Part shown: positions 48,101 through 51,100 of the stretch, one piece after another | How positions within the stretch are numbered: the first letter of the stretch is position 1 | How the letters are laid out: each line of letters begins with the position of its first letter | Assembly: GCF_013315695.1 (NCBI RefSeq) | Contig: NZ_CP054353.1 | DNA length: 64,000 nt | Source: Escherichia coli | GTDB lineage: Bacteria; Pseudomonadota; Gammaproteobacteria; Enterobacterales; Enterobacteriaceae | Reading direction: 5' to 3' (one strand) | Position numbers: made by a program

Positions 48101-51100
48101 TTCAATAACCAGATGGCCTGGCTGCGCGACAGGGGATACGCGACACTGAGCATGGCGCAGCTGGAAGGTTACGTGAAGAATAAGATCAATCTCCCTGCGC
48201 GAGCGGTGGTGATTACCTTTGATGATGGCCTCAAGTCGGTGAGCCGCTATGCGTATCCTGTGTTGAAACAATATGGTATGAAGGCGACGGCGTTTATTGT
48301 TACCTCGCGCATCAAACGTCACCCGCAGAAATGGAACCCAAAATCGCTGCAATTTATGAGCGTTTCTGAACTTAACGAAATTCGCGATGTATTTGATTTC
48401 CAGTCACATACTCATTTTTTGCATCGGGTGGATGGTTATCGCCGACCCATATTACTGAGCCGTAGTGAGCACAATATTCTGTTTGATTTTGCACGTTCAC
48501 GCCGCGCTCTGGCGCAATTTAATCCACATGTTTTGTATCTTTCTTATCCATTTGGCGGATTTAATGACAAAGCCGTGAAGGCAGCAAAAGAAGCCGGATT
48601 TCACCTGGCGGTGACGACCATGAAAGGCAAAGTAAAACCGGGGGATAATCCGTTGTTACTAAAACGACTTTATATCTTAAGAACGGATTCGCTGGAGACG
48701 ATGTCGCGGCTGGTGAGTAACCAGCCGCAGGGATAACAATCAGGCAACCTGTACCGGAATCGCTTTCGCGGTACGTTTCATTTCGTTGTCGCCTTCAAAA
48801 TAGGCGACGTTGGGTCGCCAGGTGCGAGCTTCTTCATCTGGCATGGTAACGAAGCTGGCGATGATGACAATATCGCCGACGCTGGCGCAGTGGGCCGCCG
48901 CACCGTTAACAGAAATAATTCTCGAACCGCGTTCTGCCGCGATGGCATAGGTGGAGAAACGCTTGCCGTTGGTCACATTCCAGATATCAATGGCTTCGTT
49001 TTCGAGAATACCAGCTGCGTCAAGAAAATCCTGGTCAATGGCGCAAGAACCTTCATAGTGCAGGTCCGCATGAGTCACTTTCACGCGGTGGAGTTTGCCC
49101 TGCAGCATCGTGCGAATCATAACTTCTACCTTTCTACCCTGTCGTTAACGAAGCAGGCGATGCCTGCTTTGAGGAAATTCTCACGCAGTATTGCCCGATT
49201 TTTGTTTAGTGTCTACTCATCTGACGGCATTTGCATCAGCAGTTTGCGTACCGTGCCGAAGCGTGCCATGTAACGCCTGTAACCAATTGAAATTTCTCTG
49301 AACGCTGCTCGGTAAACACTAAAGAGGCGGCTGACGACGGCGCGCCTTGACTGGATACTGCCTTCACGCAAGACAGCACGGAAGGCAGGGAAGATGGATG
49401 CACCGAGTACCACACCGCATGATGCGGTGTTTAAACAATTTTTAATGCACGCGGAAACGGCTCGCGACTTTCTGGATATCCATTTGCCAGCGGAGCTACG
49501 CGAACTGTGTGACCTCGACACGCTGCATCTTGAGTCGGGGAGTTTTATTGAAGAAAGCCTGAAAGGGCACAGCACTGACGTGCTCTATTCCGTGCAAATG
49601 CAGGGTAATACGGGCTATCTACATGTTGTAATTGAACACCAAAGCAAGCCGGACAAAAAAATGGCCTTTCGCATGATGCGTTATTCTATTGCTGCCATGC
49701 ACCGGCATCTGGAGGCAGATCACGATAAGCTGCCGCTGGTGGTGCCGATTTTGTTTTATCAGGGCGAGGCCACGCCTTATCCACTCTCAATGTGCTGGTT
49801 TGATATGTTTTACTCGCCGGAGCTGGCGCGACGCGTCTATAACAGTCCTTTCCCGCTGGTGGATATCACTATCACACCGGATGACGAAATCATGCAACAT
49901 CGGCGGATTGCGATTCTCGAACTGCTGCAAAAACATATTCGCCAACGCGACTTAATGTTATTGCTGGAGCAACTGGTCACGCTGATAGACGAAGGGTACA
50001 CTAGCGGAAGTCAGTTAGTTGCCATGCAAAACTATATGCTGCAACGCGGTCATACTGAACAAGCGGATTTGTTTTATGGTGTGCTGAGAGACAGGGAAAC
50101 GGGAGGGGAGTCTATGATGACGTTGGCGCAGTGGTTTGAAGAGAGGGGAAGACAGGAGGTAAGACAGGAGGTAAGACAGGAGGTAATACAAGAGGTTAGA
50201 CAGGAAGTAAGACAGGAATTCGCCCTGCGTTTTCTGAGTAAAGGGATGTCTCGGGAAGACGTTGCAGAGATGGCAAATTTACCTCTTGCTGAGGTTGATA
50301 AGCTGATTAGCTAAGTTATCTGCATTATCAGTTATAGCCAGATAATTGTTATTGTTAACTGACCAGATAATTAAGGGAACATATGGAAATAAAGACACGG
50401 AGAGAAACCAGGCAGACGTTGGCGCAGTGGTTTGAAGAGAAGGGATTTCAGAAGGGATTTCAGAAGGGATATAAAGAGGGACTCCAGAAGGTAAGACTGG
50501 CCCAGCGTCTTCTGAGTAAAGGAATGTCTCGGGAAGACGTTGCAGAGTTGGCAAATTTACCTCTTGCAGAGATTGATAAGCTAATTAACTCTAACTAAGT
50601 TGTCTACGATATGAATAATTGCTTACAGATGACGTGGCAATGAATAACTGGCGCCATCAGCCGTAGCGCCAGTTAAATATTACGCCAGTTCTACGATTTT
50701 GTTGTCGATCAGGCGAGCATCGCCAAGCCAGGCGGCTACCAGAATCACCGCTCGTTTGCTGTTTTCAGAGATTTCCAGCAAGGTGTCGGCATCGCGAATC
50801 TGAATATCATCGGAACGGAAACCTTTTTCATTCAGTTCTTGCCCGGCAATAGCAATAATTTCATCGAGATCCCGTTCGCCAGCCTGCAATTTGTCGGCAA
50901 TTGAACTTAAGACCTTGTACAGACCCGGCGCAATTTTGCGTTGTTCCGCCGTCAGATAACCGTTACGGGAACTCAGCGCCAGACCGTCTTTGGCGCGCAT
51001 AATCGGTACGCCGACAATCTCAATATCAAAGCCCATATCAGCAACCATTTTGCGGATCAGCGCCAGTTGCTGAAAATCCTTTTCACCGAAGCAGGCGATG

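What the first reader, a model, noticed from the sequence alone, without database searches (positions are those of the whole stretch)
50147..50490. Different 12-bp tandem coding repeats in rpnC and in the downstream paralogue
rpnC has six imperfect copies of gtaagacaggag (50147..50218) encoding (RQEV)n. The stand-alone paralogue has copies of aagggatttcag (50441..50490) encoding (GFQK)n at the equivalent position. In-frame 12-bp repeats are prone to slipped-strand changes that vary the length of this segment without breaking the frame. rpnC here is 306 codons against 300 recalled for K-12, which is consistent with length variation. The segment may be a hypervariable specificity or spacer region.
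Basis: partly seen in the sequence, partly recalled or inferred. Interest (0 to 1): 0.5.

Follow-up and report, generated by a model that had tools for sequence, protein, structure and literature searches.

The report
Variable four-residue repeats in RpnC antitoxin domain
The two 12-base in-frame repeat arrays are real and their copy number does vary between E. coli strains, but they are the already-published hypervariable four-amino-acid repeats of the Rpn nuclease/antitoxin phage-defence genes (Zhong et al., PNAS 2023), so the finding is correct but not new.

Summary
Observation confirmed. The window carries E. coli rpnC (49394..50314, 306 aa) between panD and panC. These are the only two lag-12 exact-match runs of 15 nt or more in the 64 kb, and shuffles never exceed 12 nt.

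Copy number varies. The variable segment is 10 to 42 aa across sampled E. coli, always in steps of 4 aa. Genomes with identical flanks (0 mismatches in 2,377 nt) carry rpnC of 302, 306 or 314 aa. They differ mainly in the number of perfect AGACAGGAGGTA units.

All of this is published in Zhong et al. 2023 (PMC10400941):
- RpnS is an intragenic antitoxin of the RpnL nuclease.
- The 4-aa repeats lie in its long first helix and vary between strains.
- Equal repeat number is needed for RpnC_S to block RpnC_L.
- rpnC_Ss lies downstream of rpnC in some strains.

Small additions here: rpnC_Ss is in about 29% of complete genomes. Its array matches the neighbouring RpnC_S in length in only 1 of 20 haplotype pairs. 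Leaders, repeats and tails are mosaic between the two copies.

The parts
49394..50314 (+). rpnC (RpnC_L), 306 aa: N-terminal PD-(D/E)XK YhgA-like nuclease domain plus the small C-terminal domain
   Evidence: ORF. Pfam PF04754 Transposase_31 over residues 7-207, E=2.8e-87. TIGR01784 at 275 bits against a cut-off of 52. Annotated rpnC at the syntenic panD/panC locus.
50102..50106 (+). GGAGG Shine-Dalgarno-like motif, 7 nt upstream of the internal in-frame ATG ATG
   Evidence: Read directly from the sequence. This stretch is identical in K-12, where an internal initiation site and the RpnC_S protein were shown experimentally (PMC10400941).
50114..50314 (+). Predicted intragenic rpnC_S (66 aa, MMTLAQWFEE...), the antitoxin or oligomerisation domain
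   Evidence: In-frame ATG at 50114 and 50117. Database ORFs start at MMTLAQ (P0002, P0033). AlphaFold2 model: helix 4-42, helix 47-53, helix 58-65, mean pLDDT 73.
50147..50218 (+). Six in-frame 12-bp units encoding G-RQE/V-RQE/V-RQE/V-IQE/V-RQE/V-RQE(-F). The perfect core AGACAGGAGGTA x3 lies at 50149..50186.
   Evidence: Copy number varies between genomes.
50219..50311 (+). Conserved helix-turn-helix-like end of the RpnC C-terminal domain (FALRFLSKGMSREDVAEMANLPLAEVDKLIS)
   Evidence: 91% DNA identity to 50500..50590. Invariant columns. Close homologues carry precomputed PF27070 HTH_Rpn_C. Weak HTH-type matches.
50315..50382 (.). Linker between rpnC and the small gene, found only in the two-copy form of the locus. 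It contains CCAGATAATT twice (50338..50347 and 50363..50372) and AAGGGA 4 nt before the ATG.
   Evidence: Absent from K-12. The stretch 50315..50415 is present in 1555 of 5426 complete E. coli genomes. No consensus promoter on the + strand and no terminator found here.
50383..50598 (+). Stand-alone 71-aa copy of the RpnC C-terminal domain (rpnC_Ss in the nomenclature of Zhong et al.)
   Evidence: ORF. Homology to the rpnC 3' end begins at ACGTTGGCGCAG. Annotated 'RpnC/YadD family protein' or 'hypothetical protein' in RefSeq. Described in PMC10400941.
50440..50487 (+). Four in-frame 12-bp units encoding KGFQ KGFQ KGYK EGLQ (two perfect, two degenerate)
   Evidence: The array is 14-26 aa long in other genomes.

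Best explanation
The locus is the E. coli rpnC gene-within-a-gene toxin-antitoxin system, plus a free-standing extra copy of its small domain.

rpnC encodes the full-length PD-(D/E)XK DNA endonuclease RpnC_L. From an internal ribosome-binding site (GGAGG at 50102, ATG at 50114) it also encodes the 66-aa RpnC_S. RpnC_S is identical to the C-terminal domain of RpnC_L and binds and blocks it.

The 12-bp units encode four-residue repeats (three polar residues and one hydrophobic) inside the long first alpha-helix of this domain. That helix is the oligomerisation interface. Each added or lost unit changes the helix by four residues, which is about 6 A and about 40 degrees by standard helix geometry. 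The number of units therefore sets which RpnS can pair with which RpnL.

Units are gained and lost in frame by slippage or unequal exchange among the perfect copies. Because RpnS lies inside RpnL, both change together and stay matched.

The downstream 71-aa gene is a duplicated C-terminal module (rpnC_Ss). Its array evolves independently and differs here in both unit sequence and length (20 vs 26 aa). It is therefore probably not a cognate blocker of the resident RpnC_L.

Shown here: the anatomy, the strain-to-strain variation, the recent changes on identical backgrounds, and the predicted helix. Taken from the literature: translation of RpnC_S, toxicity, neutralisation, dependence on repeat number (K-12 allele), and phage defence (shown for the plasmid homologue RpnP2). 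Inferred: that the window's RQEV allele behaves like the K-12 KGIE allele, the mutational mechanism, and the non-cognate status of rpnC_Ss.
For: - Identity: PF04754 at E=2.8e-87, TIGR01784, synteny and RefSeq annotation.
- Internal start: the start region is identical to K-12.
- Predicted structure: one long helix over residues 4-42, covering the repeats at residues 13-36, followed by two short helices.
- Ladder of 4 aa: 10/14/18/22/26/30/38/42 aa among 120 database proteins; 10 to 42 aa among sampled genomes.
- Recent change: genomes encoding the identical 71-aa downstream protein have rpnC of 302, 306, 310 or 314 aa. L020, L021, L026 and L027 have 0 mismatches in 700 nt upstream and 1677 nt downstream of the array, yet carry 5, 6, 6 and 8 units. 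They differ mainly in the number of perfect AGACAGGAGGTA copies.
- Published experiments (PMC10400941): RpnC_S detected by ribosome profiling and SPA tagging; the RpnA_S crystal structure (7TH0) is a three-helix dimer with the insertion point in helix 1; only RpnC_S with the same number of repeats blocks RpnC_L; rpnC_Ss lies downstream of rpnC in some strains.
Against: - The window's own allele (RQEV units) has not been tested. The experiments used the K-12 KGIE-type array.
- The consensus scan found no sigma-70 promoter on the + strand inside or after rpnC.
- Neither sequence nor fold searches recovered the RpnA_S structure 7TH0. The best PDB matches are weak HTH-like hits.
- The model confidence is only moderate (pLDDT 73, lower over the repeats).
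- PADLOC has no model that matches RpnC.
- A quantised 4-aa ladder is what 12-bp slippage gives on its own, so it does not prove selection.
Confidence: 0.85

Rival explanations
1. The copy-number variation is a nearly neutral by-product of slippage in a tolerant helical spacer. Because RpnS is encoded inside RpnL, every change is automatically matched and costs nothing. No specificity is under selection.
For: - The in-frame ladder is exactly what 12-bp slippage produces.
- The overlapping arrangement guarantees co-variation (sequence; noted in PMC10400941).
- Several strains carry rpnC_L disrupted by an IS element or a frameshift, which suggests weak purifying selection on the locus.
Against: - A one-unit mismatch abolishes neutralisation in the SOS reporter assay (PMC10400941, Fig. 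4D). Length therefore is a specificity determinant whenever more than one RpnS-type protein is present, as in this window.
- The same kind of 4-aa variation is reported in distant phyla.
Confidence: 0.1
2. The downstream 71-aa protein is a working second antitoxin for the resident RpnC_L, acting as a redundant safety copy, rather than a non-cognate or archived module.
For: - It keeps an intact ORF with an SD-like AAGGGA motif.
- It has the conserved TLAQWFEE and LSKGMSREDV...LPLAEIDKLI segments.
- It is retained in 1555 of 5426 complete genomes.
- The analogous RpnE_Ss (YpaA) is expressed.
Against: - In this window its variable segment is 20 aa against 26 aa in RpnC_S. The difference is not a multiple of 4, and the unit sequence differs.
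- Among 20 distinct haplotype pairs only one has equal lengths.
- For RpnC_S a one-unit mismatch already abolishes neutralisation.
Confidence: 0.15
3. The arrays are classical contingency loci that switch at high frequency within a culture, giving read-level heterogeneity (phase or antigenic variation).
For: - There are perfect tandem units (3 x 12 bp and 2.8 x 12 bp).
- Alleles differ on otherwise identical backgrounds.
Against: - The perfect tracts are short.
- Each allele recurs in several independent genomes, for example 6 and 7 further similar places for the 302- and 306-aa forms. This implies clonal stability.
- All changes are in frame, so there is no on/off switching.
Confidence: 0.05

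Closest known systems
E. coli K-12 RpnC_L/RpnC_S, with rpnC_Ss in other strains (Zhong et al., PNAS 2023, PMC10400941)
   Same: - Same gene at the same locus (panD-rpnC-panC).
- Same internal start region.
- Same position of the 4-aa repeats in helix 1 of the small domain.
- Same downstream extra copy.
- Strain-to-strain variation in unit number.
   Different: - The allele differs. The window has six RQEV-type units (26-aa segment). K-12 has KGIE-KGIQ-QGRQ-EVSQ-EF (18 aa) and no downstream copy.
- The two unit types of the window (AGACAGGAGGTA and TTTCAGAAGGGA) match at 7 of 12 positions, by direct comparison of the units printed.
- KG-type and RQEV-type units both occur within the single K-12-type array. 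Different units of one ancestral array therefore appear to have expanded in each copy.
RpnA_S crystal structure (PDB 7TH0) and other E. coli Rpn paralogues (RpnA, B, D, E; RpnE_Ss/YpaA)
   Same: - Predicted architecture of a long helix followed by two short helices. This matches the published three-helix RpnA_S, with the repeat insertion point in helix 1.
- A stand-alone second copy downstream of the gene, as for rpnE-ypaA.
   Different: Sequence similarity between RpnC_S and RpnA_S is too low to be found by phmmer, hmmsearch or Foldseek here.
TAEL repeats in the HsdS subunit of the type I restriction enzymes EcoR124I and EcoR124II
   Same: An in-frame 12-bp, four-residue repeat in a helical spacer, whose copy number changes specificity. 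This comparison is made by Zhong et al..
   Different: There the repeat sets the spacing between two DNA half-sites. Here it sets protein-protein pairing between a nuclease and its antitoxin. The proteins are not homologous.
Simple-sequence contingency loci (phase variation)
   Same: A tandem repeat that changes copy number and alters a phenotype exposed to phage or host pressure.
   Different: The changes are in frame and give no on/off switching. The perfect tract is short. The alleles are clonally stable.

Membership tests
Rpn (YhgA-like) recombination-promoting nuclease, RpnL/RpnS intragenic toxin-antitoxin | N-terminal PD-(D/E)XK YhgA-like domain (PF04754 / TIGR01784) | tested here: met
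   PF04754 over residues 7-207, E=2.8e-87. TIGR01784 at 275 bits, cut-off 52.1.
Rpn (YhgA-like) recombination-promoting nuclease, RpnL/RpnS intragenic toxin-antitoxin | Small C-terminal three-helix, HTH-like domain (PF27070 HTH_Rpn_C / DUF4351) | tested here: met
   AlphaFold2 gives helices 4-42, 47-53 and 58-65. Close homologues carry precomputed PF27070. The Pfam copy scanned here gave only weak HTH hits, and 7TH0 was not recovered.
Rpn (YhgA-like) recombination-promoting nuclease, RpnL/RpnS intragenic toxin-antitoxin | Internal in-frame start with a ribosome-binding site that yields RpnS | tested here: met
   GGAGG at 50102..50106, a 7-nt spacer, then ATG ATG at 50114. The stretch is identical in K-12, where RpnC_S was detected. 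Expression in this strain cannot be tested with these tools.
Rpn (YhgA-like) recombination-promoting nuclease, RpnL/RpnS intragenic toxin-antitoxin | Four-residue repeats that begin 8-20 residues after the RpnS start and vary in number between strains | tested here: met
   Repeats begin at residue 13 of RpnC_S and residue 20 of the stand-alone protein. The 4-aa ladder is shown.
Rpn (YhgA-like) recombination-promoting nuclease, RpnL/RpnS intragenic toxin-antitoxin | RpnL is toxic, RpnS neutralises it, and the system defends against phage | not testable with these tools
   Known only from experiments on K-12 RpnA, RpnB and RpnC and on plasmid RpnP2. PADLOC v2 has no matching model.
rpnC_Ss (stand-alone RpnC small-protein homologue) | A separate gene immediately downstream of rpnC, homologous to RpnC_S | tested here: met
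   ORF 50383..50598. It shows 73-91% DNA identity to the rpnC 3' end from ACGTTGGCGCAG onward. The same arrangement is found in 1555 of 5426 genomes.
Phase-variable contingency locus | High-frequency reversible change within a clonal population | not testable with these tools
   No read data are available. Recurrence of each allele in several genomes argues for clonal stability.

The most novel reading that the evidence does not exclude
The downstream rpnC_Ss is not a spare cognate antitoxin. It is a deliberately mismatched, archived C-terminal cassette, and recombination between it and the rpnC 3' end swaps the repeat array and tail. This makes panD-rpnC-rpnC_Ss-panC a two-cassette switch of toxin-antitoxin pairing specificity.

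Evidence consistent with this reading:
- The lengths match in only 1 of 20 haplotype pairs.
- Intragenic copies exist with KGFQ-type repeats and the LINSN tail, which are typical of the stand-alone gene.
- Stand-alone copies exist with KGIE-type repeats and the VINLI tail, which are typical of rpnC.
- A single-copy fusion allele exists (L015).

Zhong et al. already mention loss by deletion or fusion, so only the switching function and the systematic mismatch would be new.
Probability: 0.25. Interest if true: 0.45.

Novelty: already known. Interest (0 to 1): 0.15.

Why it matters
The repeats show how an in-frame microsatellite can retune the pairing specificity of a toxin and its gene-within-a-gene antitoxin in a phage-defence system. 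That point was made and tested experimentally in 2023, so this window adds another allele rather than a new principle.

The open questions are the ones the authors themselves list: what drives and what catalyses unit gain and loss, and what the downstream stand-alone copy does. The comparative data gathered here bear on the second question. They predict that rpnC_Ss is usually non-cognate for its neighbour, because the arrays vary independently, are almost always mismatched in length, and are mosaic between the two copies.

Tried and rejected
- PDB by sequence, single protein: no match to RpnA_S (7TH0). Only a designed repeat protein and weak sigma-factor or HTH hits.
- PDB by sequence, 30-sequence profile: same result.
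- Foldseek of the AlphaFold2 model against PDB: nothing with E at or below 0.001. The top hits are generic HTH domains. This is uninformative for so small and elongated a model.
- PADLOC: no model for RpnC. One weak hit for the small protein (RmrA, E=0.0018) was disregarded.
- Pfam scan of the 71-aa protein: only sub-threshold HTH and DUF hits. The scanned copy apparently lacks PF27070.
- Promoter and terminator scan of 49150..50720: no + strand promoter and no terminator. The published internal promoter therefore could not be located by consensus.
- Rfam on 48700..50800: nothing credible. One snoRNA-like hit far below threshold.
- Opposite-strand ORFs across the arrays (50015..50191 and 50279..50554): mechanical ORFs with no support.
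- Literature search for later work on RpnC/RpnS: only the 2023 paper, plus the commentary found.
- Assembly artefact: rejected. The same alleles recur in independent complete genomes.
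Full report
**1. What is in the sequence**

The region is E. coli DNA. The 591-nt stretch 50050..50640 is 100% identical to strain MSB1_4I and is found in 5424 of 5426 complete genomes.

The ORF at 49394..50314 (+, 306 aa) lies between panD (48740..49120, -) and panC (50680..51531, -). K-12 has the same arrangement, and the gene there is annotated rpnC. The protein has the YhgA-like PD-(D/E)XK domain PF04754 at E=2.8e-87 and matches TIGR01784, 'Rpn family recombination-promoting nuclease'.

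Tandem Repeats Finder reports a period-12 array at 50149..50217 with 5.8 copies and score 110. It reports a second array at 50438..50470 with 2.8 perfect copies, which continues degenerately to 50491.

In frame, 50147..50218 encodes G-RQE V-RQE V-RQE V-IQE V-RQE V-RQE followed by F. In the 71-aa ORF at 50383..50598, the stretch 50440..50487 encodes KGFQ KGFQ KGYK EGLQ. Otherwise the description is exact.

These are the only lag-12 exact-match runs of 15 nt or more in the whole window (26 and 21 nt). In 200 shuffles the longest run averaged 7.8 nt and never exceeded 12. Only three other tandem arrays in the 64 kb reach a TRF score of 50.

**2. Relationship of the two genes**

The small ORF is homologous to the 3' end of rpnC from ACGTTGGCGCAGTGGTTTGAAGAG onward. 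After the arrays the two are 91% identical over 91 nt, and the similarity continues about 20 nt past the stop codons.

The arrays occupy the same position, between TLAQWFEE and A-x-R-x-LSKGMSREDV. By direct comparison of the two unit sequences printed, AGACAGGAGGTA and TTTCAGAAGGGA agree at 7 of 12 positions (xxxCAGxAGGxA).

The single K-12 array reads KGIE-KGIQ-QGRQ-EVSQ-EF, so it contains both KG-type and RQEV-type units. The two 'different' repeats therefore look like different units of one ancestral array that expanded in each copy.

K-12 has no downstream copy. Its sequence after the rpnC stop matches the window's sequence after the small gene. The linker and start that exist only in the two-copy form (50315..50415) occur in 1555 of 5426 complete genomes, or 29%.

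**3. Does copy number vary?**

Yes. Among 120 database proteins related to the C-terminal domain, the segment between QWFEE and AxRxLSKG is 10, 14, 18, 22, 26, 30, 38 or 42 aa long, with only a few off-ladder exceptions.

In 18 sampled complete genomes the rpnC segment is 10, 14, 18, 22, 26, 30, 34 or 42 aa, and the downstream copy is 14 to 22 aa.

The clearest evidence comes from genomes that encode exactly the window's 71-aa downstream protein. They have rpnC of 302, 306, 310 or 314 aa. Four of these loci (L020, L021, L026, L027) have 0 mismatches to the window in 700 nt upstream and 1677 nt downstream of the array, yet carry 5, 6, 6 and 8 units. They differ mainly in the number of perfect AGACAGGAGGTA copies, which is 2, 3 or 4; L026 and L027 also carry a variant first unit.

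The array is therefore by far the fastest-changing part of the locus, and all changes are in frame. Each allele recurs in several independent genomes. The alleles are thus clonally stable and do not appear to flicker.

The 306 vs 300 aa difference from K-12 is +8 aa in the array and -2 aa at the tail.

**4. What it is and how it works**

Zhong et al. (PNAS 2023, PMC10400941) showed the following:
- All five K-12 rpn genes have an internal translation start that yields a small protein, RpnS, identical to the C-terminal domain of the full-length nuclease RpnL.
- RpnS blocks the toxic endonuclease.
- RpnA_S (PDB 7TH0) is a dimer of three-helix bundles, and the long first helix forms the interface.
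- Four-residue repeats are inserted in that helix 8 to 20 residues after the RpnS start, and their number varies widely among strains.
- RpnC has the most repeats in E. coli.
- Adding one repeat to RpnC_S alone or to RpnC_L alone abolishes neutralisation, while adding it to both restores it.
- A second copy, rpnC_Ss, lies downstream of rpnC in some strains. It can be lost by deletion or by fusion.
- The plasmid homologue RpnP2 protects against phages.

The window fits every sequence-level criterion:
- GGAGG at 50102..50106 lies 7 nt before an in-frame ATG ATG at 50114. This stretch is identical in K-12.
- The repeats start at residue 13 of the predicted 66-aa RpnC_S and at residue 20 of the stand-alone protein.
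- An AlphaFold2 model built on 30 homologues gives helix 4-42, spanning the repeats, then helices 47-53 and 58-65 (mean pLDDT 73).

Each unit adds four residues to a helix. By standard helix geometry that is about 6 A and about 40 degrees, which gives a simple reason why partners must have the same number of units. This last step is an inference.

**5. Observations beyond the main text of the paper (modest)**

(a) Across 20 distinct haplotype pairs, the resident RpnC_S and RpnC_Ss arrays have equal length in only one (26/26 aa). Even there the unit sequences differ. In the window the difference is 6 aa, which is not a multiple of 4. The cause is that this RpnC_Ss lineage ends ...KVRL instead of ...KVRQEF, a net 6-nt loss. 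Given the published one-unit sensitivity, RpnC_Ss is predicted to be non-cognate for its neighbour.

(b) The start context (intragenic MMTL or stand-alone xQTL), the repeat type (KGIE, KGFQ or RQEV) and the C-terminal tail (LIS, LIN, LINSN, VINLI or LINLN) occur in many combinations. A single-copy allele, L015, joins the rpnC body to a stand-alone-type tail. The two copies therefore exchange sequence.

(c) rpnC_L is interrupted by IS1, largely replaced next to ISEc49, frameshifted or split in several strains, while the small ORFs remain.

**6. What was not resolved**

Slipped-strand mispairing was not separated from unequal recombination. Read-level heterogeneity was not testable. No consensus promoter or terminator was found. 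No known RNA family is present. The RpnA_S structure was not recovered by sequence or fold search. PADLOC has no Rpn model.

**7. Verdict**

However, the phenomenon, its structural location, its functional consequence and the downstream paralogue are all already published for this very gene. The finding is rated already known and of low interest. The only open angle is the role of the usually mismatched stand-alone copy.

Noticed in passing
window 31988..33841 (-), repeats at 32105..32452: A 617-aa ORF carries 3.6 tandem copies of a 96-nt (32-aa) unit...QQRREAARERIQSATPEQRQAVREKMQTNPQ... (TRF score 311-387). From its position it is probably yacH, but I did not check whether copy number varies between strains.
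   Followed up: partly
window 28414..29276: A period-303 tandem array of 2.8 copies at 80% identity. The consensus unit looks like the three lipoyl domains of a 2-oxoacid dehydrogenase E2 subunit (aceF, from memory). This was not examined further.
   Followed up: no
L022 (IS1 within rpnC), L019 (ISEc49 next to a remnant of the rpnC 3' end), L013 (frameshift), L035 and L044 (split rpnC): In several E. coli genomes the full-length nuclease gene is disrupted while the C-terminal small ORF or ORFs stay intact. This could mean the toxin is often lost and the antitoxin module kept.
   Followed up: partly
window 50488..50499 against the rpnC equivalent at 50207..50224: The stand-alone copy ends its array with ...KVRL-AQR instead of ...KVRQEF-AQR, a net 6-nt loss. 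Its length ladder is therefore 16/20 aa, where other lineages have 14/18/22/26 aa. This is a 2-residue register shift relative to every RpnC_S.
   Followed up: partly
window 50338..50347 and 50363..50372: The 10-mer CCAGATAATT occurs twice in the linker that exists only in the two-copy form of the locus. It may be a trace of the event that created the downstream copy. The origin of the roughly 80-nt linker, which supplies the start and the MEIKTRRETRQ leader, was not traced.
   Followed up: no
database hits: A large share of the proteins matching the RpnC C-terminal domain are annotated 'partial'. Several are named 'ISNCY family transposase' or 'transposase', and a few are attributed to Staphylococcus, Vibrio, Klebsiella or Enterobacter on very short contigs. 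This suggests that assemblies break at this duplicated module and that the naming and attribution are unreliable.
   Followed up: no
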